In this document: piece after piece, positions 8,937 to 59,700 of the stretch | Layout: each line of letters starts with the position of its first letter | Numbering within the stretch: the stretch's first letter is position 1 | Source: a virus | DNA: 64,000 nt | Strand: one strand, 5' to 3' | Virus record (IMG/VR): IMGVR_UViG_3300045988_148502 | Position numbers and translations under genes: made by a program | The notes under the pieces: model-generated | Databases searched by the model: none | Seen by the model: the letters and a program-made list of their open reading frames with translations, nothing else | Told to the model about the DNA's origin: nothing

Positions 8937-9570
8937 ATTGCCATATACCGCCAAGCAAGTTTACGCTATGCTATATGAAGCGTGCCGGGTGGAAGTTGCT
9001 CATAGGCATAGGGAATTTAATGCCACCGAACAATACAAAAAGCACCTTTGGGACATTTCCAATTGGATTACATCGGAAGCCTCCACTTTCGGATTGTTCC
9101 TTTGCGGCGATGCCGGAAATGGGAAAACCACCATTCTGCGTGCATTGCAAAACCTTATAAACTACTTGCGCTCTGATGAGGGGTATAACAGCAATGCGGA
9201 TGCATATCCGATACGCGGCTACATGATGGTATCGGCTAAAGAACTCGTCTTGCTGGCTAAAGCGTATAACAATCACACACGCGACAACACCTCCGATGTG
9301 GCACGCTACAAAAGGCTGCGCCAAATCGAAATACTCGCAATCGACGAACTCGGCTCCGAACCGAAAGAAAGCATTCATTATGGCGATTACGTAACCGCCG
9401 CCATGGATATGCTGTCTTTTCGCTATGAAGAGCAGTTCTGTACGCTGGTCTCATCCAATCTTACGGCAAAAGAAATTGCAGAATATTACGACGAACGAAT
9501 TGCAGACCGTTTCCGTGAAATGATGCTAATCATCAATTTCGGCAATGAGCAGTCATTCAGAAAACAGTAA
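8920..9570 (+). CDS. DnaC/IstB-like AAA+ helicase loader
   Basis: Walker A GDAGNGKT and Walker B ILAIDELG. The ORF track start 8827 overlaps the upstream gene, so the internal ATG at 8920 is preferred. Confidence 0.75.
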   Translation: MVTRFRLPYTAKQVYAMLYEACRVEVAHRHREFNATEQYKKHLWDISNWITSEASTFGLFLCGDAGNGKTTILRALQNLINYLRSDEGYNSNADAYPIRGYMMVSAKELVLLAKAYNNHTRDNTSDVARYKRLRQIEILAIDELGSEPKESIHYGDYVTAAMDMLSFRYEEQFCTLVSSNLTAKEIAEYYDERIADRFREMMLIINFGNEQSFRKQ

Positions 9571-9586
9571 ACTAATTAAAAACATT

Positions 9587-9772
9587 ATGACGATGAATAC
9601 AGATTATAGTTATTGTTCGGGCGTTACCTGCTCAATCCGCAAGAGTTGTAAACGCTATTTGCCCGATCCACCCGATACACGTTTGCAATGGGTATGGCCA
9701 GCATACAATCCGGGAACAGACAAATGCAAGTACTATGAACCAACTAAAGTAGCAAAAACAAAAAATCCGTAA
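9587..9772 (+). CDS. Hypothetical Cys-rich small protein (61 aa)
   Basis: ORF in the co-directional gene train. Sequence MTMNTDYSYCSGVTCSIRKSCKRY... Confidence 0.45.
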   Translation: MTMNTDYSYCSGVTCSIRKSCKRYLPDPPDTRLQWVWPAYNPGTDKCKYYEPTKVAKTKNP

Positions 9773-9774
9773 TC

Positions 9775-11097
9775 ATGGAAAAGAATAAGTTTACCCATGG
9801 TAGTTTGTTCAGCGGCATCGGTGGTCCGGAAATAGCTGCCGAGGAAATGGGCTGGAAAAATATGTTCCATTGTGAAATAAACCCGTTCGGGAGAAAAATA
9901 CTTGATTATTGGTTCCCAAACAGCAAAAGTTATGAAGACATCACGAAAACAAATTTTACAGAGTGGCGTGGAAAAATCAATGTCCTCACCGGAGGTTTTC
10001 CCTGCCAGCCTTTTTCTTGCGCCGGACAGCGAAAGGGAGCGGAAGATGACCGCTACCTCTGGCCGGAAATGCTACGAGCGATACGGGAGATTCAGCCCGA
10101 TTGGGTTGTTGGTGAAAACGTTGCTGGAATCCTCTCAATGGTACAACCCGGCAGTGAAACTGCGTTGGGACGTGAAGAATCTCTGTTCGGAGAGGTTGAC
10201 CGAAAAAGAATATTGCATCGGCAGGAATACGTTGTCGAAACAGTGTGTAACGACCTTGAACGTGAAGGATATTTCGTCCAACCGGTTGTTATTCCGGCTT
10301 GTGCCGTCGGAGCGCCGCACAGAAGAGACCGTGTCTTCTTTATTGCCCACCGTGCAGACGCAGGGGTTAAAGGTATGCAACGAAAATGGGAAGACAACAT
10401 TCTATCCGGTAGGACTGCTTCCGACACCACGTGCCGTGGAAGTGGTGGAACACCCCATGAAAGCTGCTGCGAGAACGAAAGACAGAACGGGTACGAAACT
10501 CAACAACCTTTCGTCAGGGGCTGCGTTCGGGCTTCTTCCCACTCCGATGGCGAGCGATGCAACAACCGGAGCGATAATTGGAAAGAACGACCAATTTGTT
10601 ACGACCAGAAACGGGACTCCGAGGAGAATCAATCAGAACGGACAGAACGGATGCGTAGGACTTGCGAGAATGGTTCGGTTGCTTCCTACTCCCAATGCCC
10701 GGGAAGCGGACAAGTACAGCAAGAAATACAATCCGAACAGTCAAATGGGCACAGCTTTGACAGCAATGGCGGTGAATGGGATGCTCCCTACTCCAGCAGC
10801 GAGGGACTATCAACCCTCCGTTTCCCCACAAGCATTGAAAAGAAAAAATGGGAAAATGAGGACGGATGCTCTGTGCAACCTGCCGGTAATGTTAGGAGAG
10901 CATCATTCGCAGAACGGTGGAAAAACTTCCCAACTCAATCCCCTGTTTGTAGCCGAGATGATGGGATTTCCACCAGATTGGACGGTATTGCCTTTTCAAA
11001 GTGGCGGCAGGAATCGATAAAGGCATATGGCAATGCGATTGTCCCACAAGTAATGTATGAGATATTCCAAGCTATTCAAGAAACTTATAATCAATAA
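9775..11097 (+). CDS. dcm: DNA (cytosine-5)-methyltransferase (440 aa, frame 0)
   Basis: FSGIGG (9808-9825), PCQPFS (10000-10017), ENV (10114-10122), RRDRVFFIA (10321-10347), GNAIVPQV (11029-11052). The middle third is low-complexity. Confidence 0.85.
   Translation: MEKNKFTHGSLFSGIGGPEIAAEEMGWKNMFHCEINPFGRKILDYWFPNSKSYEDITKTNFTEWRGKINVLTGGFPCQPFSCAGQRKGAEDDRYLWPEMLRAIREIQPDWVVGENVAGILSMVQPGSETALGREESLFGEVDRKRILHRQEYVVETVCNDLEREGYFVQPVVIPACAVGAPHRRDRVFFIAHRADAGVKGMQRKWEDNILSGRTASDTTCRGSGGTPHESCCENERQNGYETQQPFVRGCVRASSHSDGERCNNRSDNWKERPICYDQKRDSEENQSERTERMRRTCENGSVASYSQCPGSGQVQQEIQSEQSNGHSFDSNGGEWDAPYSSSEGLSTLRFPTSIEKKKWENEDGCSVQPAGNVRRASFAERWKNFPTQSPVCSRDDGISTRLDGIAFSKWRQESIKAYGNAIVPQVMYEIFQAIQETYNQ
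10046..11020 (+). CDS. Candidate overlapping +1-frame ORF inside the methyltransferase gene (324 codons from the ATG at 10046)
   Basis: +1 frame is open from 9902 to 11020. (L/M)LPTP motifs at 10415, 10532, 10679 and 10781. NPLFVAEMMGFPPDWT at 10937-10984. The sequence looks protein-like where frame 0 looks off-frame. Confidence 0.4.
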   Translation: MTATSGRKCYERYGRFSPIGLLVKTLLESSQWYNPAVKLRWDVKNLCSERLTEKEYCIGRNTLSKQCVTTLNVKDISSNRLLFRLVPSERRTEETVSSLLPTVQTQGLKVCNENGKTTFYPVGLLPTPRAVEVVEHPMKAAARTKDRTGTKLNNLSSGAAFGLLPTPMASDATTGAIIGKNDQFVTTRNGTPRRINQNGQNGCVGLARMVRLLPTPNAREADKYSKKYNPNSQMGTALTAMAVNGMLPTPAARDYQPSVSPQALKRKNGKMRTDALCNLPVMLGEHHSQNGGKTSQLNPLFVAEMMGFPPDWTVLPFQSGGRNR

Positions 11098-11102
11098 TAA
11101 CC

Positions 11103-11540
11103 ATGGACAATTCAATTTATAAAAAATGCACAGAGTGCGGGCAAACAAAGCATATTTCAGAGTTCAGCAAATCATATCCTAACAGGTGTAAAACTTGTGT
11201 AGCAGAACACACGAGACAAATGAGAGCTGCTGAAAAACTTAAAGCTAAAGTAAAGGCTACCGGCGAGGTCATAGATGTTGAACCGTCAGGTACTATGCAG
11301 GTTTTATGCGGTTCATTCATAACGAAAGACGGTCGAAGAATGCCCGGAACAGCACTTGAATTTGAAAAAGCCATAGACTGGGAACAACGCAGATACGAGA
11401 TTGCGAAAGAGATAATGAAAGGATTTTCAGCCAATTCACATAATCAGTGTGTGGATGCAAGTAGCGAAACGTTAGCCCAGTGGAGCATTAGCGGTGCTGA
11501 TGCTCTTATTGCAGAATTGAAGAAAGGAGGTAAAGGATGA
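11103..11540 (+). CDS. Hypothetical protein with an N-terminal Zn-ribbon-like CxxC...CxxC (145 aa)
   Basis: CTECGQTKHISEFSKSYPNRCKTC. Coupled to the next gene by an ATGA overlap. Confidence 0.55.
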   Translation: MDNSIYKKCTECGQTKHISEFSKSYPNRCKTCVAEHTRQMRAAEKLKAKVKATGEVIDVEPSGTMQVLCGSFITKDGRRMPGTALEFEKAIDWEQRRYEIAKEIMKGFSANSHNQCVDASSETLAQWSISGADALIAELKKGGKG

Positions 11541-12409
11541 AAGTAATAGTTTCATTCAGTGGTGGCAAAGATAGTCTTGCATCACTTCTTTGGGTGCGTA
11601 ATAACCTAACAAAAGATTTTATTACAGTATTTTGTGATACAGGTTGGGAACACCCATTGACCTATAAATATATCGAAGAAGTACAGGAACAACTTGGCTT
11701 AAATCTCATTACCGTCAAGTCAAAGAAGTTTAACGGTATGGTAGATTTGACAAAAAAGAAATCACGCTGGCCATCCTCGCAACGGAGATTCTGCACATCT
11801 GAATTGAAAACCATTCCGATGATTGACTACATACTCGATGAAGTAAACGATGATGTTCTGATTATACAAGGAATACGTGCTGCCGAGAGTGCCAAGCGTG
11901 CCGAAATGTCCAAGCAATGTACGTACTTCAAGTATTATGTGCAGCCATACGGTAAGGATAAGAATGGTAAGGACAAGTACCACACCTATCGTCGTAAAGA
12001 TGTATTGGCATTTCGAAAGAAATATGCTGATGACCTATTGCGTCCGGTATTCGATTGGTCGGCACAACAAGTGATTGACTATATACTTGAAAATGGAATA
12101 CAGCCTAATCCTCTCTACCGAATGGGCTACAAACGTGTTGGTTGCTTTCCTTGCGTGATGGCTTCACAACAAGACATTTACAATATCAGCGTACAAGAGC
12201 CAGAAAGGATAAGCTACATTGCAGGTCTCGAACAACAGTTCAACAGCAGTTTTTTCGGTCCTGATAAAATTTCATCTAAGTATTATAAGGGTGAATATCC
12301 TCTAATCAGCGATGTTGTTCGTTATGTACAAAGTAAACGTGCAGGTGGTTCTCTGTTCGACGATGATGTGGCAACAAGTTGTATGAGCTACTATGGGCTT
12401 TGTGAATAA
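11537..12409 (+). CDS. PAPS-reductase-family PP-loop ATPase (290 aa)
   Basis: PP-loop SFSGGKDS near the N-terminus. C-terminal Cys motifs (GCFPC). Confidence 0.8.
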   Translation: MKVIVSFSGGKDSLASLLWVRNNLTKDFITVFCDTGWEHPLTYKYIEEVQEQLGLNLITVKSKKFNGMVDLTKKKSRWPSSQRRFCTSELKTIPMIDYILDEVNDDVLIIQGIRAAESAKRAEMSKQCTYFKYYVQPYGKDKNGKDKYHTYRRKDVLAFRKKYADDLLRPVFDWSAQQVIDYILENGIQPNPLYRMGYKRVGCFPCVMASQQDIYNISVQEPERISYIAGLEQQFNSSFFGPDKISSKYYKGEYPLISDVVRYVQSKRAGGSLFDDDVATSCMSYYGLCE

Positions 12410-26310: not shown

Positions 26311-29300
26311 CTATTCAATTATAACGAATTTTCCGCGGAAGGCCAGACGCGCCCCGCAGAGCGTGTCCGAGCTCGATGAAGCGAAGTACGCGCCCGCAAA
26401 AGCGAGACCGCTGTACGCATACGAGTTGTGGCCGGACCGCAAAACACAACGGCCTCGGCTTCCACTTATCCAAAATCCTGCTGCATAATGTGTTACATAC
26501 ATACTTGTATCTCCCTTGTGTACTCTGCTGGGCAATACATCGCACTTGGCACCATGTACTATGCGCACGACACAATTTCCATTGGAAGCGTCAACTGTTT
26601 TAACAGTCCGTTCGGTTTTGTTTACGGGGTCATAAATATGCACTGTATAATCTATTGGATATGAACTGTCGTTCTCCGTGCATTTTGCCTTGTAGAACGC
26701 TTCATAGCTCGGCACATTAAAAGCGATATAGTCCATCCATTCTGAATCACAACCCACATAATGCTTCAATCCAAGTATGGAGTTGAGCGTATTGCCGGTA
26801 TTATTGCTGTCAGCCATGCCGATGGAATCCAGTTTATTCAGAATGCTGTCATGTCCGCCATTGCCCACAACCGACTGTTCGTTGGTTGTTCCGCTCAAAG
26901 CCCACCATAGATTGCTAATCTCTTTATGCTGTTCGTAATCCTGCAACTGATAGCCAACTCCACGTAAGCGGCAGATGTTTTGGAAATCCTTTGCCGTGTA
27001 ATTCAAACCGCCGATAGGCATCTCAATAGGATTACCCTCACTGTCGTATTTCCATTCGTTAGATGTAACGGACGTCCCGTTGCCTTTCTTCGAACGTATA
27101 TCACCGGAAAGGCTGCGTGGCATCTTCAAACCGTCAACGGTAATAGGATATACACCGACCAGACTGTCGTTGTCGCCAACCGTGTGTTCGGTCCATTCAG
27201 GTTCTATGGCTTCAATACTGCTGCTGTCTACAACAAGGCACTCTATGTCGCCAATGTCACGGAAAGAAGTGAAATAAAACCATTTTGCACCGTTAGGTAT
27301 GTCACAGAACACATAATCACCGATGTTGAAGTCAAAATAGGTATGGCTTACAGACATGATGAACGTACTGAGCACACGGTTGTTTTCGTCAGTGAACACG
27401 CCTCCAAGCCGGGCATGGTTCAGACCGGGCCATCTTACCTGCTTCATTCCTCTCACATCCATCTTGTAGCTGTTCGTATTGGATGCGGTGGTTATGACAT
27501 CCTCGCCTATGACTTCACCGACAACGGCATCAATCGCATACACTCCGGTATTTTCCATATATAGCAATTCCGACAACAGGGATTTTCTGCTATGCAATGC
27601 AGTTGAGAGCGGTTCGGTCTCTGTTATAGAAGGGAAAAAATACTTTACTTGGTTCTTGTAGTCGTTCACTCCCTTGTACCAATGGTGCGGAGCATGCCAG
27701 AATATATCAAAGCCCTCTCCGGCGGTGTCCGTTATGTCAAAGCTGCTGCCGTTTTTCAGGTAGTTGAAATCCGTATCGCTTAACTGCACGCCTTCCATCT
27801 GGTTTTTCTTCGTGTTGAATGAGCATTTATAGGCATGGCATCCTTTCTTGATGGCAAGGGTATGCCCGCTTGGAATATATGTGTTGCCATAATCCGCCCC
27901 CGTCTTATTTTCGGGATTGCTATACTTCTCACACGAATCATTGTCTACCGTATCGCTGATTTTCACAATAGAGAACTGCGAATTATGAAGTTCAAGTTGG
28001 GGAAAATACCGGACAAGCTCTTCGATTTCGTTCTGCTCTATCAGTTCGACCAATATCCATCGTCCGGTTATTCCGCTACACTGTCCTTTTTCATCGTACG
28101 CATTACCATTCGCATCCAATCCTATAGCCCCACCGTTTTTTATGGAACGAAGCATTTCAACACTCGCCGTAGCATTTACGTTGGGAATACGGACGGTTTT
28201 CAATTCACTTGCATTGACCACCTGTTCCAACAGAGTCATCGTATCAATATACGGACATTCATTCACGAATATTTTTGTAACCTTACTGACACCACCAAGA
28301 GAAAGCCCGCCGGGATAAGTCAGATTAGGCAGATTGTTCAATACAAGTTCAGTGATAGTACCGGGAAGGGCAAGCGTACTTATCGGAGAAGTTTCAGCAA
28401 ACGTTATTGCAGACAAAGAAGTATTATCGGCATGCACACTCTCCATTCGTGGACACTTTGAGCAATTGACGGTTATAATTTCCGTGTTTCGAATATCCAA
28501 TGTAGTGAGAAACGGCATGTCTCCTAAATCCAAATTGGTAAGAAATCCGGTGTTTCCAGGCGACATTTTCCATTCCTTATGATTTTCACTACCGAGATAC
28601 AGTTCCTGTAGCAACGACATTTTTGAAAGGGTATTCCCGAATTGAGGGTCAATACTTACTTCACTTAAATCTATCATGCTCATGCGGTCTGCCTGATATA
28701 TGTACAGCATGATGTTTTCCCCATGCTGGAAATCTGTGAATGTACCGCTTTCCCCTGCCTTCAGAAAGATTCCCTGTGTAATGTTTCCACTATCGTTACC
28801 GATACCGAAATACCCACTCTTGGCCGCTTTAAATCTGATGACTGCACCTTCTTTTGCACCGATACGTCCACCAATATAACCGCTTTCCGCCTTGAAATCC
28901 CCACAGCGGTAGTATCCGTCACGGATGCGCCAGCGTTGTTCTATAAAAGCGGGAAGAGATGTCAGCCCCAGTCCTTGCAATGCATAGAAATAGAGGTCGT
29001 TGTATCCTGTATATTTGATATACTTCCGTTCTCCGTCATAACTTGAAACAACCTTAGGCCATTTTTTCATTATCTGTTTTACAAAATAATAGTCAGCTCC
29101 CTTGGGAGAAAACGGTCCGGCACCGATTCCAAGTGTATCGGGAAGCGAACGCATCGTATCTGCTATTGCAGGCAATGTAATTGTATTGGCATTTTGGTCT
29201 ACATCCATAGTCTGCTGACCACGTATATCATTCCAAAGCACGCTTCCTCTTCCGGCGTATGCACTGTTTGTCAGATCACCGGGGTCAACTTCCGGGTCAA

Positions 29301-32300
29301 TGGTTTGCCCGCCGTCATTATCCTTACCGTTGCAGGTATCACAGTCATAAACTTTATTAAGGTACATTCTTCGCGCTTCCATACCGTTTGCTCCGCTATA
29401 AACACCGTCCTTGACGCTACAGCCGTCTTCAAGGAAGAACATCGGTTGCATGTTTTTCGCCTGTTGGTCGACAGCGGCAAGATAATCGGTGAAAAGATAA
29501 TAGGAAACCAACGAGTATGGATTGATGTATTTCCACATCTGTGTCTTCCAAATTTCCTGCCATTTCCCTGCGAGCTCTTCCTTGGCATAATCGCAACTGT
29601 CGCAGAATTTCAGTACTTGGTACAGGTCGAACGGTACTTTCCGTCCCATGGCCAGGTCTATCTGTAACTGGTCATCGTCAATCATGCACTCGAAGTAACG
29701 TGTCCACATCGGGTAGGTTTCCTGTCCGAGTTTGAGTTTCGTTACCCACGAGGACTCTGCGGTAGTAGGTTCCATCATGTCTTCAACGCTGCCAACCCCT
29801 TGCCACCAGTTCATTCCATCATATGTGAGCAATTCGTAACCGCTTACCGGATTAAGGACCTTGCCTGTAATCTTCCACTTGCCGTTTTCCTGCTTCATCT
29901 CTCCGGCTTGTCGCGTCCACTCTCCCCGTTCGTATGACATAAACCGGTAGTCCTGCCCGCAATATAGGGAAAGAAGATAAAGCTTTTCTTTATCGGTGGT
30001 AATATCATTCTTGAAACGTGTTTCTATCTGGTCGATGCTTTCGCCCTTTTGTCCGAAATATTCCACAAAATCTCCATAGTTCACGCAGCCTTTATTGTAA
30101 CCGGGAGTATCTTTAAACCCAAGCGCAACCTGTTCTCCCTTATCCTCCTTCCAGTTCCCTTTTGCATGAAACCATGCGTCTGTCAAGCTTTCCTGTGTAG
30201 CACGGAATGCGGCAATGGGATGATTGGCTGTCGAGTGATTCATTTCCAATCCCTTTAATGATATGTCACTCTTTGCCCAAGTTCCATCAAATGAACGCTG
30301 TGCGGGAGTCAGGTAATTACTTCCGAGTGCACGAAATGTGGCGTTCATCAAACCGCACACACCGCAGTCGTTGGCATTGGAGCTGTCGGAATAATCCACT
30401 TTCACCGTTATTATTTTTACCGGAATAGAATCTTCGCCTACACGGACATAACCTATTCTCATCAGTTTATATGATATTTGAGCATCTTCACTGTCATAAT
30501 CCGGATAAATAGGAGTTACCTCCCAGCCATCATTCTTTTGAAGATAGAAACGGTCGTTCTTGATAGGCCGTTTTGCCGAAGTGGTTCCCTGCCTGCGCCA
30601 TTGCACATTGATAGCCTTAAAACTTCTCCACGGCATAGTCGGATGATAATAGAACAACGTACATTTGAACTTCTTGCTTGTATCAATATCACCGTCAAAC
30701 GTGTCAAAAGTTTGCTGGTCTGACACGACCACATAATAAGGTATGCCTTTTGCGGAAAGGGCTTCTATTGTCGGACGATTCTGTGTATCAAGCACATTCT
30801 CCGCTTCATACTCCTGTATCATTGCTGAAGTATCAGTCAACTTGCACAAATAGTTTCTAAAAGCTTGCGCCCATTCATAATGACTGTTGTAGGCAAGTAC
30901 ATAATACAAATACAAGTCTCCTTCCGTTCCGTCAAATGTTATGGTTTTTGAATTAAGGATAGCACCGCTATTACTGATATATCCTATACAGCCGACCTCT
31001 TCACCATTCAAATACAGTTTGATACAGGAATAATTGCTTCCCCCACGTGATACATAAATGGTAGATGGTTCTACAACTACGGCCATGGTAATTTTTTCAC
31101 CTTGTCGGAATGAGCGTTCCACCAAAGCCGGTTGTCCGGTCTTGCAGTATATCGCAGCTTTATTTCCACAGACATAGAAACCGGCTCCGCTATCAGGGTC
31201 ATAGCATTCTATCAGCTTTGAATCAGCTTCCTTGATATTTTTGGTGGCAAAGGCAAATTGGATGGCACATCCGCTCGTAGTTTCCACTGATGCGTTTCCA
31301 AAAGGATGGTAATCCAATATTTCAGCTGTTACATTTTCTGCAATACGCAAAGAACGCTCCTTAAGAAAGTCTACAAATCCGTTGCTTGACCAGTTTGCAC
31401 CTCGTACATCCATTGTCACTCCGTTATGTGTGATAGTATGATCGCTCTCACTGTTGCTACGTGTAGAAAAATCATATCCGAACAAAGCACCGTCCTTGAT
31501 CGCTATATCAATGGCACTCCCTTTTATCGTAACCTTGATTTCATTGGTGGATACACCGCCACTTTCGGCATGTACGGTAATACTTTGGCTTCCGTCCGTA
31601 CTATATCCGCTTATCTGCTTGTTCACTGTAACCGTTTCGGCAATCATAGCTTCCACAGCTGTAACTTTCTCCTCGCTGTAGAAAACATCTACATGCGTTT
31701 CAGTCTTGCCGGGAGTATACGCAGCCACCTCTACGGTAAGGTTGTCATATAAACGTAACGTGCCGTTGTTCTTGTCATTGAACCTGATGGCGACGATGGG
31801 AGTATTACTGTTTTCGTCCACACACATGATAGCGGAATAGATGGTGTTTCCCTTTACTCCGGATTTCTTCTCCGTACCGTATATTCGTACAGGATATGCG
31901 CCATGCGAAAGTCTTTCTCCGCCACCGAATACATTTGTTGGATTGACAGAGATGCCTTTGGTATAACTGTCGCTTACCGTTGCTTCACCAAGTTTCTTCC
32001 ATTCTCCATTATAGAACATCTCCACTACTGCAAGAATGGATGAAGTGTTATTAGGGAATTTATAGAATTGTCCGATATTTTTTGCCGGACCACCTGCAAC
32101 AAGGATAGTATCACTTGTGTAATTCAAAGCCATGGGTTGTTCTACGGTAATATCCACAGCCATAATGGTAATGGCTTTTTTCTTGGTATTTCCATCCGAA
32201 TCTGTAGCTTGCACAAAGAAGCTTTTGCTGGCGGCACTGCTGAAATAACTTGTGAAGTCAAGTTCAAACTTGTAATCGGTCGCACTTGCAGAGCCTACAG

Positions 32301-34248
32301 TGTTCATATCCTCACTGGATAATGTCAGTCCGGTGCTTGCATCAATAATAGTGATGTTACGAATGACACCAAGCACCTCGTTACCATCAGGATAGCTGAC
32401 ACTACGCAAAGCTACATTGATTTTTATCTCTGAGCCGAATGCCATAATAGGAGCGGCTTCCTCGAAGTAGATAGACAATGTACTATCCTCACTGGAGCCG
32501 CCACCACCTCCATTTTTGGGTATTTTAAGCACAATATCCTCTATCTGTCCGCCATTCAGATTGGTGGCTTTGTAGTAAATGTAGTCTTCATCACTTTCTT
32601 CATCAAATCCGCCGATAGCTTTCTCCTGCATTATGTATGCCCCGCCTGTGGAAAGGGCATCTTTTCCTCCCTCTGCCGGTTTGTCGGATGTTTCCACCTT
32701 GCTTCCGCCACTGCCGAATGCTACCCACGGTTTCAGATCATCAGGGCTGATGTCACTCTTATCGCGTGTGAACTGATAGGCAAGCCATACAGGTGCGCCA
32801 TTTTTATCACTTTCCGCAGTCTTGAATGTAAGGACGATACCGCTTTTCAAATAAGAGAACCCGCTTTCTTTCTCAAGGTCAACAACAGCTTTTATGGCTG
32901 TTCCCAAAGTATATTCTCCATCTCCGCAAAGGTCGTTCACGTTGATGGTGTTGCCTACGTTTCCACCACCGGAAGTCCCGAAATCCGTCCAGTTGCTTTC
33001 TTTACTCCAATCAGAGGTATTTGTCCATTGTTTTGAAACCCATCCGGCTTCTGTAAGGAATATCAAGACAACACCCGGAATCTGCAAAGCAGAAGCATAT
33101 TCAGAAGTCGCACACCTGTCAAGTGCTACGGAAAATGTTATCTCCCTATCTGAAAGGTCAAACAGATGGTTGACATTCACAACGCTACGCGATACGACTT
33201 GTTTATTGAGTGAAAGTATTGCCTTCTTGTTTTCTTCGACCTGCTTCATATCTTCCTGTAACTTCGCACCTTCATCACCGGGGAATGCAGTAGAGCTTGT
33301 ATGTCCGAGAGCAAGGTCGGAGCCAATTGAAGTCAGTTGTTTACCGCTCCAACGATAACTTTTTCCATCTTCTTCACATAGAAAGACTTTGCCGGAAGAG
33401 GGTATTCGCCCGTTTGTACTTGCCGTACCGAAAACATCTGCATCCAACCAGTTGTTATAATAAGTAGCAGTCTCGGATTCTCCGATTGTCGGAACGTATG
33501 CAAGCACAAAGCAACCATGTTCCTTATCATATACAACTTTACAACCCTCATCGTTGGAATTTTTGTCTATGGATTCATTTTTTACAGTAATGCCTACGGA
33601 AATGCCATAAAAATCTACCACGTCATCAATGTATCCGGGCAAATGTCGGCTCGGTACTTTCCCTTGTTCGTCAAGAGGGGCGATTCCTCCGTTTTCACCT
33701 TTTGATTCTTTGAAAGAGTTCAGTTGGCTTCCAACTTCATTCGCCTTGTTGTTTGCCTTGTTTGCGGTATCCTTGGTCGTGTTTACTTGGTCTTGCAACG
33801 AGTTGACACTATCACCAAGCGTGGTGAGGTTGGTGTCTTGCGCTTTGTTGCGGGCTTCTATATCCGTAATGTCGTCCTGCAGTTTGGTAATATCCTCTTG
33901 CAGTTTTTCTACGGCTTCGTTATACTGACCGCTGTCTATGGTCGGGTTGCCTCCACTCTGTCCGGTCGGGACCCATTCTCCGCCATCGCCCACATATATG
34001 GGAGCTGGTAAGGAAACACCCACAAGTGCCCACCATCCGTCATGTGGTAAAGGATAAGCCGCTTTCAGTTTTTCGATGGTCGTGAACAGTCCTTTGCTCA
34101 CTCCCTTGATATTTTTTGCCTCAAGCCAGCCGTCCACCATTACGTTTCCTTTCAAGTGGGTCTTTCCCTGAACGGTCGCGTCACCACCTATCGCTGTATT
34201 GCGACCAACGGAGACATCACCGTCTATATGTTTTGATTCGTAACTCAT
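26311..34248 (-). CDS. Giant tail fibre / receptor-binding protein (2645 aa); DGR target
   Basis: N-terminal beta-helix-like repeats and a coiled-coil (about 33650-33950). Leucine-rich-repeat-like region (about 28150-28560). C-terminal VR in a C-type-lectin-like context (...CGARLAFRG). Confidence 0.85.
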   Translation of the reverse strand: MSYESKHIDGDVSVGRNTAIGGDATVQGKTHLKGNVMVDGWLEAKNIKGVSKGLFTTIEKLKAAYPLPHDGWWALVGVSLPAPIYVGDGGEWVPTGQSGGNPTIDSGQYNEAVEKLQEDITKLQDDITDIEARNKAQDTNLTTLGDSVNSLQDQVNTTKDTANKANNKANEVGSQLNSFKESKGENGGIAPLDEQGKVPSRHLPGYIDDVVDFYGISVGITVKNESIDKNSNDEGCKVVYDKEHGCFVLAYVPTIGESETATYYNNWLDADVFGTASTNGRIPSSGKVFLCEEDGKSYRWSGKQLTSIGSDLALGHTSSTAFPGDEGAKLQEDMKQVEENKKAILSLNKQVVSRSVVNVNHLFDLSDREITFSVALDRCATSEYASALQIPGVVLIFLTEAGWVSKQWTNTSDWSKESNWTDFGTSGGGNVGNTINVNDLCGDGEYTLGTAIKAVVDLEKESGFSYLKSGIVLTFKTAESDKNGAPVWLAYQFTRDKSDISPDDLKPWVAFGSGGSKVETSDKPAEGGKDALSTGGAYIMQEKAIGGFDEESDEDYIYYKATNLNGGQIEDIVLKIPKNGGGGGSSEDSTLSIYFEEAAPIMAFGSEIKINVALRSVSYPDGNEVLGVIRNITIIDASTGLTLSSEDMNTVGSASATDYKFELDFTSYFSSAASKSFFVQATDSDGNTKKKAITIMAVDITVEQPMALNYTSDTILVAGGPAKNIGQFYKFPNNTSSILAVVEMFYNGEWKKLGEATVSDSYTKGISVNPTNVFGGGERLSHGAYPVRIYGTEKKSGVKGNTIYSAIMCVDENSNTPIVAIRFNDKNNGTLRLYDNLTVEVAAYTPGKTETHVDVFYSEEKVTAVEAMIAETVTVNKQISGYSTDGSQSITVHAESGGVSTNEIKVTIKGSAIDIAIKDGALFGYDFSTRSNSESDHTITHNGVTMDVRGANWSSNGFVDFLKERSLRIAENVTAEILDYHPFGNASVETTSGCAIQFAFATKNIKEADSKLIECYDPDSGAGFYVCGNKAAIYCKTGQPALVERSFRQGEKITMAVVVEPSTIYVSRGGSNYSCIKLYLNGEEVGCIGYISNSGAILNSKTITFDGTEGDLYLYYVLAYNSHYEWAQAFRNYLCKLTDTSAMIQEYEAENVLDTQNRPTIEALSAKGIPYYVVVSDQQTFDTFDGDIDTSKKFKCTLFYYHPTMPWRSFKAINVQWRRQGTTSAKRPIKNDRFYLQKNDGWEVTPIYPDYDSEDAQISYKLMRIGYVRVGEDSIPVKIITVKVDYSDSSNANDCGVCGLMNATFRALGSNYLTPAQRSFDGTWAKSDISLKGLEMNHSTANHPIAAFRATQESLTDAWFHAKGNWKEDKGEQVALGFKDTPGYNKGCVNYGDFVEYFGQKGESIDQIETRFKNDITTDKEKLYLLSLYCGQDYRFMSYERGEWTRQAGEMKQENGKWKITGKVLNPVSGYELLTYDGMNWWQGVGSVEDMMEPTTAESSWVTKLKLGQETYPMWTRYFECMIDDDQLQIDLAMGRKVPFDLYQVLKFCDSCDYAKEELAGKWQEIWKTQMWKYINPYSLVSYYLFTDYLAAVDQQAKNMQPMFFLEDGCSVKDGVYSGANGMEARRMYLNKVYDCDTCNGKDNDGGQTIDPEVDPGDLTNSAYAGRGSVLWNDIRGQQTMDVDQNANTITLPAIADTMRSLPDTLGIGAGPFSPKGADYYFVKQIMKKWPKVVSSYDGERKYIKYTGYNDLYFYALQGLGLTSLPAFIEQRWRIRDGYYRCGDFKAESGYIGGRIGAKEGAVIRFKAAKSGYFGIGNDSGNITQGIFLKAGESGTFTDFQHGENIMLYIYQADRMSMIDLSEVSIDPQFGNTLSKMSLLQELYLGSENHKEWKMSPGNTGFLTNLDLGDMPFLTTLDIRNTEIITVNCSKCPRMESVHADNTSLSAITFAETSPISTLALPGTITELVLNNLPNLTYPGGLSLGGVSKVTKIFVNECPYIDTMTLLEQVVNASELKTVRIPNVNATASVEMLRSIKNGGAIGLDANGNAYDEKGQCSGITGRWILVELIEQNEIEELVRYFPQLELHNSQFSIVKISDTVDNDSCEKYSNPENKTGADYGNTYIPSGHTLAIKKGCHAYKCSFNTKKNQMEGVQLSDTDFNYLKNGSSFDITDTAGEGFDIFWHAPHHWYKGVNDYKNQVKYFFPSITETEPLSTALHSRKSLLSELLYMENTGVYAIDAVVGEVIGEDVITTASNTNSYKMDVRGMKQVRWPGLNHARLGGVFTDENNRVLSTFIMSVSHTYFDFNIGDYVFCDIPNGAKWFYFTSFRDIGDIECLVVDSSSIEAIEPEWTEHTVGDNDSLVGVYPITVDGLKMPRSLSGDIRSKKGNGTSVTSNEWKYDSEGNPIEMPIGGLNYTAKDFQNICRLRGVGYQLQDYEQHKEISNLWWALSGTTNEQSVVGNGGHDSILNKLDSIGMADSNNTGNTLNSILGLKHYVGCDSEWMDYIAFNVPSYEAFYKAKCTENDSSYPIDYTVHIYDPVNKTERTVKTVDASNGNCVVRIVHGAKCDVLPSRVHKGDTSMYVTHYAAGFWISGSRGRCVLRSGHNSYAYSGLAFAGAYFASSSSDTLCGARLAFRGKFVIIE
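26338..26453 (-). repeat. DGR variable repeat (VR), 116 nt, encoding the last ~45 residues of the fibre
   Basis: See the TR entry. VR encodes ...GRCVLRSGHNSYAYSGLAFAGAYFASSSSDTLCGARLAF; TR encodes GRCVLRSGNNSNANSGLAYANANNASSNSNTNYGARLKF. Confidence 0.9.
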
Positions 34249-34883
34249 ATTAATACAGATTTAGCCAATTCGTTCAATGCGGCACTTTTTTCCGTATCGC
34301 CGAATGTCGTTAATACTAATGCAGCTATGGTATATATCACAGCATCATAACATTTCTCACAGATTTCTACCGCGCCATATTTGTCTATTTTCGGGTAAGG
34401 CAGATATACAGCACGGCTCACTTTCGCTTCTGTCGTTTTGCAAGAATAAAATTCCATCACTCTTCCTTCTGGCCGTATGGATATGGCGCATACAGGCCGT
34501 TGACATGTTCCCCTTATGCCTTTAAATCGGGAAGACTGTTTTTCATATTCAGGGTCATCGGTGTTTATGGGATTAAATACCGCACGCTCCCAATCGTTCA
34601 TTTGGAAAACGACAAAACGCATGAAATCTTCCGGCAGTAATATCCATCCGCTTTCATGCTCTTTCCAATATATGGCATCACCGAAGTTGTGTCCGCCGTC
34701 AAGCAAATAGGACGGTGCAGAGCTGTGCACACGCTTTACTGCTTCCAAAATCTTTGATGCAATGATGTCGTCAAGTGCAAGAGTGTCCACATCGCCTATA
34801 ATCTTCAACGTATCGCTGTTCATGTTTTGGTCCAGGGCGGTGCGTACATCCTCCTGTATTTTGTTCTTCTGATATACAGCCAT
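34245..34883 (-). CDS. Hypothetical virion protein (212 aa)
   Basis: ATGA overlap with the fibre gene. Lies in the structural block. Confidence 0.6.
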   Translation of the reverse strand: MAVYQKNKIQEDVRTALDQNMNSDTLKIIGDVDTLALDDIIASKILEAVKRVHSSAPSYLLDGGHNFGDAIYWKEHESGWILLPEDFMRFVVFQMNDWERAVFNPINTDDPEYEKQSSRFKGIRGTCQRPVCAISIRPEGRVMEFYSCKTTEAKVSRAVYLPYPKIDKYGAVEICEKCYDAVIYTIAALVLTTFGDTEKSAALNELAKSVLI

Positions 34884-43522: not shown

Positions 43523-46500
43523 CTATTTACGGGTTTTGTTCATTTCTTCTATCATTTCCTTTTTGAGTTCGTTCAACTCGGCTTCAATATCCTTGCGTTC
43601 CTCGTCACTGATTGCTTCTTTTAATTCATTGTAGAGGTCGTCAATGTCTTCACGGTAATCCTCGAAGATTTCGTAACGCTCGTATTCGGGTGAATTGTAA
43701 AGGAAATCAATCTTTTCCGCATAGTCAAATATGTCGTTGTCGGTATCTTCTTCATAGTGCTTCAATCGGGATTTCAACCGGTCATGCTCCTCTTTCAATC
43801 GGAAATACTCATTGTTCACAGCCCTGTACTCGGTGCGTTCGTCCCCGGCTTTGACCAGCCTGTTTGCCAACAAGAAGCTGCGAGGGTCGTACTCACGGTT
43901 GCCTGTAACGGTTTCTACCATCTTGCTCAACTTGTCGATTGTTCCGAACACGCCACCGAAATAACCGTTCAGCATATATTCAATCTTTGCCGGATTAAAG
44001 TCAATCGTTCCTTTTGTATATGGGTCTCCACCCGTAGCTTCATTCATGGCATTGGCCAATCCGACAATGTATTTATTGGCACTCTTATACGCCTTTGTCC
44101 ATTCGGGCATATCTTTGTTGTAAGGTGTGTCTTTATAAAGTGGCATACCCGTCCAACTCTTTTCTGCAACGTAGGCTTCCCACAAGGGTTTGTAGGCACT
44201 CGGTACAAAGGCATTCAATCCTCCGCCGCCCTCCAAGAAATCAATAGGTAATATCTGTGTAGCCTGTCCTGTTATGGCTTCGGCAATTTCTCCGTCTGTA
44301 AGATGTTCCTTTCCGTTAAGGACGGAAATCATCAGTTCGCCCATACCGTAAACAGCCCTGTATTCTACCGGAAGAGGAATTGATACCCAACTGTTTCCTG
44401 CCCTGAAAAGAATATTGCTGCGCCTTACATATTCGGGAAGATTATAGTATGCGTTCTTGTCATCATCGTCATCATCATCGCCACCCAAGTAGGCAACAAT
44501 GGCACCAAGAAGGAACATCGCCGCAATACCTGTAAAAGCTTTGGCAGGATGGCGTTTCATCTGTCGTCCAAAGTTTGCCGTACCTTGAATGGCTGCATTC
44601 CAAAACACATAGCCGCTACGACCAAGTCCCGATACCAATGCACTGGCATTACCAGCCTTTGTCTGCCCTGTACTGTCATAGAATTTTGCTCCGCTGCCTT
44701 TCTTGTTGAAGTTTACGCTTATCTCCTTTGCATCATAGATGGCTCTGTCAATGCTCCGGCCCATTTCGCGTGATGTCATGAAAGCGGCAAAACGGGCGCA
44801 GTTCTCAACGGCTCGGTTGTACTCATCGAAACGTCCGCCCAACAAGTCCCATGCTTTTTTTACAGGAATCTTGCCGTTTGATTTTTTCAGTTCCCTGCGT
44901 ATGTCGTTCTTATGTTGTTCAATGTCCCGGATATTGGCATAGCCTGTTTCTCCTCCGTTCATCATGAACTGATGAAACATCGCTTCCGTCTTGTTACTCA
45001 TGTCAAGTGTCCCTTTGCGGTGCTTTGCCAAGAGTTGCTTTATCCTTACAGGATTGGCATACATATAATTGCGATGAAAACGAAGTGCGTAGTTCGGGCT
45101 TTCCCTTATCCAAGTCATGGTGTTGGTGTATAGCATATCTCGCATGAAGTTCGATACGATGAAGTCCGGGTTGCGTGTGGTATAGAACGCACTCAACTGT
45201 CGGTTGATGTTTTCACCGGCACGGAGAATGGCCCCGATTGCCCCCGACATATCGTTGTCGGGATTTGTCTGTCCGTTCAATGCTTGTGCCGCACGTGGAT
45301 TGCCGTTTATGGTAATCACATAGTCCCTGCCGCCACGCTTCACTACAATTTGGTGCTGCCTCATATCCCGGCTTTCCACAATACGGTAAGGAATATTCAC
45401 GGTATCTTTGCCATGCTTGTACCGGTCAGGATATTGCTGTGCCAATGACTCCATTTTAGTTTCAAAGTCCAGCATCTTCCGTTCCACCACTTCGGGAGTA
45501 TCTGTACTGTCTATGTTGTCAGGAAACACTGGCTTCCATTCGTCGGCCACCGTATCGTATTCTACCCAAATGTCGCTCACACTGACAAGGTCGCTCGGAT
45601 GGTTGAGGGCGAAATTAAGGAAACGCTGTTTTACCAATTTGTTCCGGTTGCCCTGCATGATAGCACCTTCTGCCATTGATTGCAGGTTGGCAAACGGGTC
45701 ATCCGCTTTCGACCTGCGTCCTTCCGCTTTCTTGATAGGAGCATTGAATGCACTTTGCTTGTGCGTCAGATATGCGTATGCTTCAGAACTGGTCTTTTCG
45801 TCAAAACCACGTAGCGGAATGTAAAAATCATACATATCTGAAATTTTATCAAAGGTCGCTTTACTCATCATGCCACATTCGTATGACTTTGAAAGTATTG
45901 CTTTGCTCGCGGCATTGACTTTTTTCCAAAGGTCGGTAGTGTCGTGTGCCTGTTCGTAATCGTTAACCATTATCTGTGCTTCCGTTTCGGCATCAGCAAC
46001 ATTATCCATACCTGTAAGGGCTGTAAGTCCGGCATAGTCGGTTTGGTCTGCATCGGTTGCTCCGTTATTGATTGCTTCATTACGCATATATGTATTGCGT
46101 TCAAGGCCGTGTTTCGCCATCATGTAATCAGTCAATTCCTCACGCTCTGCCTCAGTCCTGGCAAGTTTGGCAACCTCATCAAGCATGGGCTTGAACAGGG
46201 TGTGGGCAAACGCATCGGCTTCGGCTTTGTTCACACTTGACAGACGGTTTTCTCCCAAGTATGCGTTTTCAAATCCGTCCACATCCTCAATGTTTGTTTC
46301 CTTGCCAAGGATTGCAGTCATGGCTTCTTTCAAGCCGAGCATACTGTCCTGTAATGCTTCCTGTGATTGGAACATACCGCTTTTTACACGCCTTTCATAA
46401 CGGTCACGAGCCAACTCCCTTTCATGTATTTCCGGGTCACCGGTACGGTATAGTGCATCATCACTTTCTGCAACAGTCTGATGATGTGGGTCGGAAACCG

Positions 46501-59698: not shown

Positions 59699-59700
59699 AG

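What the first reader, a model, noticed from the sequence alone, without database searches (positions are those of the whole stretch)
9775..11097. C5-methyltransferase gene carries protein-like information in two overlapping frames (~975 nt)
Frame 0 contains motifs I (FSGIGG), IV (PCQPFS), VI (ENV), VIII (RRDRVFFIA) and X (GNAIVPQV). Between about 10350 and 10920, however, it reads as Cys/Ser/Gly/Arg/Glu/Asn-rich sequence that looks like off-frame translation. The +1 frame is open for 372 codons (9902-11020, with an ATG at 10046) and looks like a genuine protein. It has four evenly spaced (L/M)LPTP motifs (10415, 10532, 10679, 10781) plus LLPTV at 10340. It also has NPLFVAEMMGFPPDWT (10937-10984), which resembles the ...GFP..W segment that precedes motif X in many C5 methyltransferases. 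The +1 ORF stops at 11018-11020, just before the motif X codons begin in frame 0. So the target-recognition and motif-IX-like information appears to sit in +1 while the catalytic core sits in 0, and both frames stay open. Possible explanations are an overprinted gene encoding a separate specificity subunit, a +1 then -1 recoding event that yields a canonical enzyme, or paired sequencing indels.
Basis: partly seen in the sequence, partly recalled or inferred. Interest (0 to 1): 0.85.

Follow-up and report, generated by a model that had tools for sequence, protein, structure and literature searches.

The report
Methyltransferase gene hiding its specificity subunit
A phage DNA cytosine methyltransferase gene encodes two proteins from the same ~1.1 kb of DNA in two reading frames, most likely the catalytic subunit and, nested inside it, the subunit that recognises the DNA target; this arrangement is conserved across thousands of phages and prophages and is rarely annotated.

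Summary

- **Two genes.** Frame 0 (9775-11097, "alpha", 440 aa) carries C5-methyltransferase motifs I, IV, VI, VIII and X. The +1 frame (most likely 9932-11020, "beta", 362 aa) lies wholly inside it.
- **Beta layout.** Beta has a conserved N-domain, five "xLPTx" cassettes and motif IX.
- **Conservation.** The nesting holds in about 160 independent loci, from Bacteroides phages to Paenibacillus phages and prophages of several phyla.
- **Selection.** Across the cassettes, beta is under purifying selection (dN/dS 0.06-0.5). Alpha is unconstrained there (dN/dS above 1), yet selection keeps it free of stop codons. Both frames are constrained over motifs IV-VIII and over IX/pre-X.
- **Independent translation.** Bacillota relatives place a Shine-Dalgarno site and start codon inside alpha. 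Some relatives move motif X into the beta frame, and alpha then terminates after motif VIII.
- **Best model.** A two-subunit enzyme: alpha is the catalytic domain with an unconstrained (probably disordered) tether, and beta is the target-recognition domain plus motif IX. Shuffled cassettes suggest several specificities, but this is untested.
- **Precedent.** M.EcoHK31I and M.AquI are the known two-polypeptide C5 methyltransferases. This is a new and very widespread variant.
- **Missing.** No biochemical or expression data were available.

The parts
9775..11097 (+). alpha gene (frame 0, 440 aa): catalytic subunit of a C5 DNA methyltransferase. Motifs I (9808-9825), IV (10000-10017), VI (10114-10122), VIII (10321-10347), X (11029-11052).
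   Evidence: PF00145 E=1.6e-40; TIGR00675; aligns to M.HhaI motifs I-VIII; dN/dS about 0.1-0.3 in 9775-10345 and 11021-11094.
9932..11020 (+). beta gene (+1 frame, 362 aa from the ATG at 9932; alternative starts at 9977 and 10046; frame open from 9881). Nested entirely inside alpha. Proposed target-recognition/motif IX subunit.
   Evidence: Homologs in 556+ viral and 257+ genome loci, always +1 within alpha. phrog_1008 E=2e-29. The start 'MK(T/I)..KQ' is conserved in Bacteroides-phage relatives. Bacillota relatives have an SD plus start 29-37 codons upstream of the conserved 'MTxTSG'.
10046..10339 (+). Dual-coding segment 1: the conserved beta N-domain (MTATSGRK...LLESSQW...LRW...LLFRLVPSERRTEE) overprinted on alpha motifs IV (distal part) to VIII.
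   Evidence: Alpha third-codon-position identity in deep pairs is 0.56-0.70 here, against 0.26-0.42 (9775-9931) and 0.32-0.54 (11021 onward). This includes the comparison with Paenibacillus phage Bloom. Blastn finds 77% nt identity to Paenibacillus phages over query 215-567. Alpha dS is 4-5 times lower than in the alpha-only region.
10340..10936 (+). Beta cassette array (+1 frame). Modules run 10340-10414 (LLPTV..., family F1), 10415-10531 (F8), 10532-10678 (F5), 10679-10780 (F2), and 10781 onward (F0, which continues into motif IX). Proposed tandem target-recognition modules.
   Evidence: Beta dN/dS 0.06-0.5 against alpha 1.1-3.9. Modules fall into 48 families combined in 61 architectures, with fixed first and last modules. 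P0418 is an in-frame deletion of two modules between LLPTP repeats.
10348..10925 (+). Alpha spacer (frame 0, about 190 aa, rich in Cys/Ser/Gly/Arg/Glu/Asn). Its amino-acid sequence is unconstrained, but the frame is kept stop-free to link motif VIII to motif X.
   Evidence: Alpha dN/dS is 1 or higher. No stops, against about 9 expected per locus under synonymous redraw of beta codons, with P(open) below 0.004 in nearly all of 51 distinct sequences; the +2 frame has 867 stops in 40 kb. In relatives where X sits in the beta frame, the alpha frame has 7-10 stops over the same stretch.
10937..10984 (+). Beta motif IX (NPLFVAEMMGFPPDWT, +1 frame).
   Evidence: A hybrid of the beta C-terminus plus the alpha C-terminus hits PF00145 positions 277-323 of 324 (22.5 bits, E=8.8e-5); alpha's own C-terminus gives no hit. 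The homologous LNPDWVEWLMGYPISWT is in frame with motif X in Ca. Megaera, within an end-to-end PF00145 match, and aligns weakly to DRM2 motif IX-X.
10926..11020 (+). Dual-coding segment 2: the alpha pre-X segment (WKNFPTQSPVCSRDDGISTRLDGIAFSKWRQES) overlapping beta motif IX and the beta C-terminus.
   Evidence: Both frames have dN/dS of about 0.2-0.4 while the third frame is at 2.1. Alpha third-position identity is 0.59-0.83 in deep pairs.
10413..10794 (+). Four copies of a 16-nt direct repeat (10413-10428, 10530-10545, 10677-10692, 10779-10794) encoding xLLPTP. Likely recombination points for gaining or losing cassettes.
   Evidence: spacings of 117, 147 and 102 nt are all multiples of 3. Variant P0418 is consistent with repeat-mediated deletion.

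Best explanation
The locus encodes a two-subunit (split) DNA cytosine-5 methyltransferase from one stretch of DNA read in two frames.

**Alpha (frame 0)** is the large catalytic domain: AdoMet binding (motif I), the catalytic Cys (motif IV), then VI, VIII and X. Where ordinary enzymes have the target-recognition domain between VIII and X, alpha has about 190 aa of sequence-unconstrained, probably disordered linker. Its only requirement is to contain no stop codon, so that the ribosome reaches motif X.

**Beta (+1 frame)** starts inside alpha near 9932. It supplies the small domain in trans:
- an N-terminal domain that probably docks on alpha;
- a tandem array of 'xLPTPxAxD' cassettes that probably read the DNA target;
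- motif IX.

Alpha and beta are inferred to assemble on DNA into an active enzyme, as M.EcoHK31I and M.AquI do. The gene sits in the replication module of a Bacteroides phage with no restriction enzyme next to it. Its likely role is therefore to self-methylate phage DNA against host restriction.

The cassettes are swapped combinatorially between relatives. They may give the enzyme several specificities, as the tandem recognition domains of the Bacillus phage SPR/phi3T methyltransferases do.

**Shown:** both frames are real and selected, region by region; beta's C-terminus is motif IX; beta has its own initiation signals in Bacillota relatives; the cassettes are modular.

**Inferred:** physical association, activity, docking role of the N-domain, multispecificity.
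For: 1. **Conservation of nesting.** In 83 of 85 phage loci beta's open frame lies wholly inside an open alpha frame, always at +1. Alpha length tracks beta length. The same holds in most of the 80 bacterial-genome loci across several phyla.
2. **Annotated precedent.** Paenibacillus phage records already list the inner gene ('g55 internal gene').
3. **Region-specific selection.** Cassette region: beta dN/dS 0.06-0.5, alpha 1.1-3.9. Region 10926-11020: both about 0.3-0.4, third frame 2.1.
4. **Wobble constraint.** Alpha wobble sites are conserved only where beta overlaps (0.56-0.83 against about 0.35), even between Bacteroides and Paenibacillus phages.
5. **Stop avoidance.** About 9 alpha-frame stops are expected per locus and none is seen.
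6. **Natural control.** In relatives L127 and L148, alpha stops after motif VIII, beta carries IX and X, and the alpha frame downstream has 7-10 stops.
7. **Motif IX.**
8. **Initiation.** An SD plus start codon is found in 14 of 15 Bacillota loci against an 8.7% background. L148 lacks the internal Met.
9. **Alpha lacks a TRD.** Alpha matches M.HhaI only over motifs I-VIII.
10. **Beta alone is not compact.** AlphaFold gives beta alone pLDDT 55.7.
11. **Cassette shuffling.**
12. **Precedents.** Two-polypeptide C5 methyltransferases, one with beta nested in another frame: PMC2836561, PMC3404938.
Against: - There is no direct evidence that beta is translated or that alpha and beta associate. No proteomics, Ribo-seq or biochemistry was available.
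- Structure prediction was uninformative. The alpha model failed (pLDDT 32.6), and no complex could be modelled.
- No profile or structure match links the LLPTP cassettes to characterised target-recognition domains. Pfam, NCBIfam and PDB all give nothing for beta.
- By plain NG86, beta shows dN/dS above 1 over 9932-10345. Its constraint there rests on suppressed alpha-synonymous change, which phage mosaicism could partly mimic in close pairs. The deep-pair wobble test argues against that.
- The SD statistic picks the best of 3-7 candidate starts, and the loci are not independent.
- A few Bacteroides chromosomal copies keep an intact beta beside a decayed alpha. That could mean beta has a function of its own.
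Confidence: 0.8

Rival explanations
1. Programmed ribosomal frameshifting. The ribosome shifts +1 after motif VIII into the cassette frame and shifts back (-1) after motif IX, giving one canonical polypeptide I-VIII / TRD / IX / X. The nested ORF is not a separate protein.
For: The order of information along the DNA (I-VIII, cassettes, IX, X) is exactly that of a canonical enzyme. In Form B relatives, alpha's stop codon falls right at the first LLPTP cassette, so a single +1 shift there would make a canonical chain.
Against: - The beta frame is open and constrained about 300-400 nt upstream of motif VIII. A shift product would not need that.
- Bacillota relatives have an SD plus start for beta.
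- The alpha frame is kept stop-free across the whole spacer. That is pointless if ribosomes leave the frame.
- Two efficient opposite shifts would be required.
- I did not search for a slippery site systematically, and none was apparent.
- Split C5 methyltransferases are known to work as separate chains.
Confidence: 0.06
2. Beta is a real overprinted protein, but it has nothing to do with methylation (for example an anti-defence or regulatory protein). Alpha is a complete, if unusual, methyltransferase on its own.
For: Beta has no Pfam or NCBIfam assignment. Some Bacteroides chromosomes retain an intact beta with a decayed alpha. Alpha has all the catalytic motifs.
Against: - Beta's C-terminus is motif IX, which alpha lacks.
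- In Form B relatives beta also carries motif X and alpha ends after VIII, so neither chain is a complete enzyme.
- Alpha's region between VIII and X is unconstrained in sequence, so alpha has no plausible target-recognition domain.
- Beta is found with alpha in essentially every locus examined.
Confidence: 0.08
3. Artefact. The two-frame appearance comes from compensating sequencing or assembly indels, or the +1 ORF is a chance by-product of alpha's composition.
For: Public protein sets contain many alpha/beta chimeras with junctions at many different positions. This shows that indels do occur in assemblies of this gene.
Against: - The same two-frame layout is present in a 99.8% identical isolate genome and in about 160 further loci down to 27% beta identity.
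- The intact 440-aa alpha cluster has 1071 members.
- P(chance +1 ORF of 372 codons or more) was 0 in 5000 redraws.
- The beta frame is under purifying selection.
- The chimeras are expected. Any single-base indel inside a 1.1-kb doubly open region gives a long ORF that gene callers report, whereas a nested ORF is normally suppressed.
Confidence: 0.01

Closest known systems
M.EcoHK31I (E. coli HK31; Lee, Kam & Shaw 1995, as described in PMC2836561 and PMC3404938)
   Same: It is a C5 methyltransferase made of two polypeptides. The beta gene lies entirely inside the alpha gene in another reading frame. [quoted passage not shown] Beta's N-terminal part is needed for association with alpha.
   Different: - In M.EcoHK31I alpha is reported to hold the target-recognition domain, and beta is small with only motif IX.
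- Here alpha's variable region is an unconstrained spacer. Beta (362 aa) carries a conserved N-domain overprinted on catalytic motifs IV-VIII plus a whole array of cassettes.
- No sequence relationship to M.EcoHK31I could be tested.
- M.EcoHK31I is part of a restriction-modification system. This gene is an orphan phage gene.
M.AquI (Agmenellum quadruplicatum; Karreman & de Waard 1990, as described in PMC3404938)
   Same: It is a two-subunit C5 methyltransferase split in the variable region. Alpha has I-VIII and beta has the distal variable region plus IX-X. Form B relatives of this family (L127, L148, P0241, P0244) have exactly that division.
   Different: In the window, motif X stays in the alpha frame, so beta is fully nested. 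Even in Form B relatives beta starts about 430 nt inside alpha, overlapping motifs IV-VIII.
Multispecific C5 methyltransferases of Bacillus phages SPR, phi3T, rho11s and H2 (Wilke et al. 1988, Lange et al. 1991, cited in PMC8936443; details from my own knowledge)
   Same: They are phage-borne orphan enzymes with several target-recognition modules of about 40-50 aa in tandem between motifs VIII and IX. The modules can be added, lost or swapped. Here the cassettes are 25-49 aa and are combinatorially shuffled.
   Different: Those enzymes are single polypeptides in a single frame. No sequence similarity of the cassettes was tested, and the specificity of the present cassettes is unknown.
PHROGs phrog_1008 and the Paenibacillus larvae phage 'internal gene' annotations
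   Same: Beta belongs to phrog_1008 (E=2e-29; Paenibacillus beta 6e-72). GenBank records of P. larvae phages list the nested ORF (Shelly_56 'g55 internal gene'; Bloom_57 'DNA cytosine methyltransferase').
   Different: These are bare annotations. The papers I could search gave no statement of subunit role, motif IX content, cassette structure or dual-frame selection.

Membership tests
DNA cytosine-5 methyltransferase (PF00145 / TIGR00675) | Catalytic motifs I (FxGxG), IV (PCQ), VI (ENV), VIII (RxR) and X (GNxV) in one polypeptide | tested here: met
   Alpha: PF00145 139.9 bits; TIGR00675 113 bits, above its cut-off; aligns to M.HhaI residues 16-125 and 132-181; the motifs can be read directly.
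DNA cytosine-5 methyltransferase (PF00145 / TIGR00675) | Target-recognition domain and motif IX between VIII and X in the same polypeptide | tested here: not met
   Alpha's VIII-X region has dN/dS of 1 or higher. Alpha's C-terminal 61 aa gives no PF00145 hit, whereas beta's C-terminus joined to alpha's motif X hits model positions 277-323.
M.EcoHK31I-type heterodimeric C5 methyltransferase | Beta ORF lies wholly within the alpha ORF in a different frame | tested here: met
   Beta at 9932-11020 lies inside alpha at 9775-11097 in the +1 frame. The arrangement is conserved.
M.EcoHK31I-type heterodimeric C5 methyltransferase | Alpha carries I-VIII and X; beta carries motif IX | tested here: met
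M.EcoHK31I-type heterodimeric C5 methyltransferase | Alpha carries the target-recognition domain | tested here: not met
   Only the beta frame is under purifying selection across 10346-10925. The cassettes are conserved as beta-frame peptides.
M.EcoHK31I-type heterodimeric C5 methyltransferase | Both polypeptides are made and both are required for methylation | not testable with these tools
   Needs expression and activity assays.
M.EcoHK31I-type heterodimeric C5 methyltransferase | Sequence homology to M.EcoHK31I alpha and beta | not tested
There were no E. coli plasmid or chromosome matches to beta or to the overlap DNA.
M.AquI-type split C5 methyltransferase | Motif X on the second (beta) polypeptide; alpha ends after VIII / the variable region | tested here: not met
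   In the window, X is in the alpha frame. The feature is met only in relatives L127, L148, P0241 and P0244.
Multispecific phage C5 methyltransferases (SPR/phi3T type) | Several tandem, exchangeable target-recognition modules, each giving one specificity | tested here: inconclusive
   The tandem cassettes are modular and exchangeable. Their role in recognition and their specificities are untested.
Multispecific phage C5 methyltransferases (SPR/phi3T type) | Single polypeptide | tested here: not met
   The cassettes are in a different frame from the catalytic motifs.
PHROGs phrog_1008 | Significant match to the family profile | tested here: met
   Beta E=2.1e-29; Paenibacillus beta E=6e-72 over profile positions 29-283 of 329.
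Programmed-frameshift gene | Conserved shift site, and no need for the second frame upstream of that site | tested here: not met
   The beta frame is conserved and open 300-400 nt upstream of the putative shift point and has its own SD and start. A shift site was not searched for systematically.

The most novel reading that the evidence does not exclude
A very large class of 'short' phage and prophage C5 methyltransferases may all be obligate two-subunit enzymes. The beta profile finds 44,150 clusters at 50% identity. In this reading their DNA-reading subunit is hidden in the +1 frame of the catalytic gene, and its N-domain was overprinted on the most conserved catalytic motifs (IV-VIII). The exchangeable cassettes would make these enzymes programmable and multispecific. 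The stop-free 'junk' spacer in alpha would be the price of keeping motif X in the catalytic chain. That would make this one of the longest and most widespread same-strand dual-coding regions known in bacteria and phages, and one that standard annotation and domain databases rarely report.
Probability: 0.45. Interest if true: 0.85.

Novelty: new variant of a known kind. Interest (0 to 1): 0.72.

Why it matters
**Overlapping genes.** This is a clean, statistically strong case of about 1.1 kb of same-strand dual coding. It is conserved across bacterial phyla, and three selection regimes can be told apart along the gene: alpha only, beta only, and both. It also shows a frame kept open purely as a linker. 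That is useful material for the study of overlapping genes and overprinting.

**Annotation.** Gene callers suppress nested ORFs, and Pfam and NCBIfam have no model for beta. These enzymes are therefore usually recorded as single, apparently TRD-less methyltransferases. Public protein sets also contain alpha/beta frameshift chimeras.

**Phage-host biology.** If beta is the specificity subunit and the cassettes are target-recognition modules, the family would be a natural modular system for re-targeting cytosine methylation. That bears on how gut Bacteroides phages evade restriction, and on the design of split, targetable methyltransferases, which is what M.EcoHK31I has been used for.

Tried and rejected
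- **AlphaFold of beta alone** (111-sequence alignment): pLDDT 55.7, pTM 0.27. Only the N-domain helices and strands reach about 70. Too weak for a fold search, so none was run.
- **AlphaFold of alpha**: only a shallow alignment was possible (27 sequences at 79-100% identity). The model failed at pLDDT 32.6 and was not used.
- **Complex modelling**: the tool takes one chain and only window or database sequences, so an alpha+beta complex or hybrid chain could not be modelled.
- **Family searches on beta and Form B beta**: Pfam, NCBIfam and PADLOC gave no hits. PDB sequence searches with beta gave only chance lysozyme matches at E above 0.1, and nothing for L127 beta.
- **Original papers**: the M.EcoHK31I and M.AquI papers are not held, and the 2009 paper has no held supplements. 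Homology to M.EcoHK31I is therefore untested.
- **E. coli searches**: blastn of the overlap against E. coli genomes gave no match. tblastn against plasmids gave no E. coli hit.
- **Representative search with alignment A1**: It was repeated with A2.
- **Regex classification of architectures**: only 110 of 167 loci could be classified. The counts are lower bounds.
- **Phase variation**: I asked whether the many alpha/beta chimeras mean phase variation. The 319-member 414-aa cluster (P0390) proved to have an unrelated C-terminus, not a frameshift. Only about 3-4% of phage loci are broken. I attribute the chimeras to sporadic indels plus ascertainment.
- **NG86 dN/dS for beta over 9932-10345**: not interpretable, because alpha-synonymous sites are beta second positions. 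The wobble-identity test replaced it.
Full report
**1.

The window is 99.8% identical to Bacteroides phage BS-TP4 over this gene. There it is annotated as a single 'DNA methyltransferase', gp43, inside a replication/recombination module with no restriction enzyme nearby.

Frame 0 (9775-11097, 440 aa) has motifs I, IV, VI, VIII and X at the stated places. It matches PF00145 (E=1.6e-40) and TIGR00675. Against solved structures it aligns to M.HhaI only over motifs I-VI and VII-VIII. Against phrog_363 it aligns as a short methyltransferase with an insertion of about 170 aa.

The +1 frame is open from 9881 to 11020. It contains the LLPTV/LLPTP series and NPLFVAEMMGFPPDWT.

Given alpha's protein sequence, a +1 open run of this length never arose in 5000 synonymous redraws (maximum 267 codons). 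The +2 frame's longest run is 38 codons.

**2. The nested frame is a conserved gene**

tblastn with the +1 product finds the same arrangement in:
- Bacteroides phage BKO1-TP3 (49% identity);
- two gut 'Bacteriophage sp.' contigs;
- a Porphyromonas phage;
- about 28 Paenibacillus larvae phages (27% identity).

The Paenibacillus records already list it as an inner gene ('g55 internal gene').

IMG/VR holds at least 556 loci. In 83 of the 85 examined, beta's open frame lies inside an open alpha frame, always at +1. Alpha length tracks beta length: alpha 343-545 aa, beta 209-504 aa.

GTDB genomes hold at least 257 loci. They come from Bacteroidota and Bacillota, and from single MAGs of Pseudomonadota, Desulfobacterota, Chlamydiia, Cloacimonadota and Peregrinibacteria. 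Most of the 80 examined show the same nesting.

A profile of 111 beta sequences finds 44,150 clusters at 50% identity at E of 1e-3 or better, and 28,477 at 1e-10 or better. Pfam, NCBIfam and PADLOC have no model for beta. PHROGs has one, phrog_1008, labelled 'DNA methyltransferase'.

**3. Which frame is selected where**

Nei-Gojobori comparisons of the window with 24 relatives:

| Region | Alpha dN/dS | Beta dN/dS | Note |
|---|---|---|---|
| 9775-9931 | about 0.1-0.3 | about 1 | alpha only |
| 11021-11094 | about 0.15-0.35 | about 1-2 | alpha only |
| 10346-10925 | 1.1-3.9 (well-aligned pairs) | 0.06-0.5 | beta only |
| 10926-11020 | about 0.2-0.4 | about 0.2-0.4 | third frame 2.1 |
| 9932-10345 | about 0.2 | not interpretable | alpha dS 4-5 times lower than upstream |

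Close phage pairs are mosaic, so I repeated the last comparison on deep pairs, where silent sites should be saturated. Alpha third-position identity is:
- 0.26-0.42 in 9775-9931 and 0.32-0.54 after 11021;
- 0.56-0.70 in 10046-10345 and 0.59-0.83 in 10926-11020.

This includes the comparison with Paenibacillus phage Bloom: 0.56 and 0.61 against 0.26 and 0.38. In this phase alpha's wobble base is beta's second codon base, so this is the expected signature of a constrained beta. It also explains why blastn finds 77% nucleotide identity between phages of different phyla over this stretch.

**4. Alpha is kept open on purpose**

Between motifs VIII and X, 67 loci (40 kb, 51 distinct sequences) have 867 stops in the +2 frame. 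These loci were chosen for an uninterrupted alpha frame, so the informative comparison is with expectation. Redrawing beta's codons synonymously gives about 9 alpha-frame stops per locus, and a stop-free frame in fewer than 0.4% of draws for nearly every sequence.

A natural control exists. In two Bacillota MAG loci (L127, L148), motif X has moved into the beta frame and alpha ends just after motif VIII. There the alpha frame accumulates 7-10 stops across the cassettes. So the spacer is translated, as a linker that brings motif X to the catalytic chain.

**5. What beta is**

Alignments show three parts:
- a conserved N-domain: ...ERERKMTxTSGRK..PxGxLxKxLLxSxxW...LxW....LLFRLVPSxxxTxE;
- a variable number of cassettes that each begin 'xLPTPxAxD';
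- a conserved end: GxTSQLNPxFVExMMGFPxxWT.

The end is motif IX:
- Joined to alpha's motif X, it hits PF00145 model positions 277-323 of 324 (22.5 bits, E=8.8e-5). Alpha's native C-terminus gives nothing.
- In a Ca. Megaera plasmid the homologous LNPDWVEWLMGYPISWT is in frame with motif X inside an end-to-end PF00145 match (171.7 bits). It also aligns weakly to motif IX-X of plant DRM2, at E about 0.02-0.04, which is marginal.

The cassettes are modular. 431 cassettes from 122 beta cores fall into 48 families and 61 architectures. The first (F1) and last (F0, with motif IX) are fixed and the internal ones are shuffled. The window is F1-F8-F5-F2-F0. A natural variant (P0418, on 9 contigs) has lost two cassettes in frame between LLPTP-coding repeats.

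AlphaFold does not fold beta alone into a compact domain (pLDDT 55.7). This fits a subunit that folds on a partner, but it is weak evidence.

**6. Beta is initiated independently**

In 14 of 15 Bacillota loci, a 5-7 nt Shine-Dalgarno match with 7-11 nt spacing precedes a start codon 29-37 codons upstream of the conserved 'MTxTSG'. The background rate is 8.7%. Two caveats apply: I took the best of 3-7 candidates per locus, and the loci are related.

L148 has Ile instead of the internal Met, so the start must lie upstream of it. In Bacteroides-phage relatives the start 'MK(T/I)..KQ' is conserved, which points to 9932 in the window.

**7. Three architectures of one family**

| Form | Where seen | Alpha | Beta |
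|---|---|---|---|
| A | the window; 201 of 256 diverse beta-family proteins end about 9 aa after motif IX | I-VIII + spacer + X | N-domain + cassettes + IX |
| B | L127, L148, P0241, P0244; 16 of 256 | I-VIII | N-domain + cassettes + IX + X |
| C | Ca. Megaera plasmid | I-VIII + spacer + IX + X | a different N-terminus + cassettes only |

In this sample no member had the catalytic motifs in frame with the cassettes, apart from indel chimeras.

**8. Mechanism and rivals**

The best model is a split C5 methyltransferase. Alpha is the large catalytic domain with a sequence-unconstrained, probably disordered tether. Beta is the small domain (recognition cassettes plus motif IX) with a docking N-domain.

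In C5 methyltransferases the small domain holds the variable region and motif IX and makes all the specific DNA contacts. M.AquI and M.EcoHK31I show that the fold tolerates being split, and M.EcoHK31I beta is encoded inside alpha in another frame.

Double ribosomal frameshifting is disfavoured. It does not explain beta's conservation and start signals upstream of motif VIII, nor the need to keep alpha open. A methylation-independent beta is disfavoured by motif IX, and by Form B, where neither chain is complete. An artefact is excluded.

Multispecificity of the cassette array is an inference by analogy with the SPR/phi3T enzymes. I give it about 0.4-0.5.

**9. Novelty**

The principle is known from one enzyme: a beta subunit with motif IX nested in another frame of alpha. 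The differences here are:
- the whole recognition apparatus is in beta;
- beta is overprinted on catalytic motifs IV-VIII;
- alpha carries a selected-open 'junk' linker;
- the cassettes are combinatorial;
- the frame boundary moves relative to motifs IX and X between relatives;
- the family is very large and mostly unannotated.

I found no paper in the searchable library describing this. REBASE and subscription journals could not be checked.

**10. Side observation on public data**

A search with beta returns many 411-416-aa proteins that are alpha-to-beta chimeras with junctions at many different positions. It also returns a beta-to-alpha chimera and fusions to neighbouring genes. In a doubly open region any single-base indel yields a long ORF, while intact nested ORFs are rarely called. 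This is mostly ascertainment: the intact alpha cluster has 1071 members, and only about 3-4% of phage loci are broken.

Noticed in passing
window 9775-11097 (public relatives P0001, P0004, P0007, P0009, P0032, P0041, P0047, P0083): Public protein collections hold many alpha/beta frameshift chimeras of this gene, typically 414 aa, with junctions at many different positions. There is also a beta-to-alpha chimera. They are probably sporadic indels or assembly errors made visible because both frames are open. They would pollute family alignments.
   Followed up: partly
L088 2416-3535 and L099 2416-3481 (Bacteroides sp. MAG and B. reticulotermitis chromosomes; also L089, L100, L101): In these chromosomal copies alpha is decayed: its 5' end is lost along with motif I, the spacer has stops, and motif X is missing. 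The nested beta ORF is still intact at 330-348 aa. This is either recent decay or a hint that beta has a function of its own.
   Followed up: no
L165 1254-2276 (Ca. Megaera polyxenophila plasmid CP113869): This is a third architecture. Motifs IX and X are both in the catalytic frame, and a 177-aa nested +1 ORF (1561-2094) carries only the LLPTP cassettes behind a different N-terminus (SGMMQNG...).
   Followed up: partly
window 10415-10678 relative to P0418: A natural variant found on 9 contigs lacks two cassettes through an in-frame deletion between LLPTP-coding repeats. This shows how the cassette number changes.
   Followed up: partly
window 11537-12409 and 11103-11540: A PAPS-reductase-like gene follows the methyltransferase after a Cys-rich 145-aa ORF. 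The same neighbourhood, plus an N6-adenine methyltransferase, occurs in phage BKO1-TP3. This may be a DNA-modification cluster.
   Followed up: no
window about 43526-59710 and about 26314-34260, minus strand: There are two very long open stretches, of 5,395 and 2,649 codons, presumably giant phage proteins. A 395-codon plus-strand open stretch (56426-57610) lies antisense inside the larger one.
   Followed up: no
window 9545-9772: A small Cys-rich ORF (75 aa) lies immediately upstream of alpha and overlaps the end of the DnaC-like loader gene. In one public variant (P0009) it is fused to alpha by an indel in the A-run before the stop codon.
   Followed up: no
relative P0377 (562 aa): This is an alpha variant with an internal tandem duplication of about 120 residues spanning motifs IV-VI. 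It could be an assembly artefact or a real duplication.
   Followed up: no
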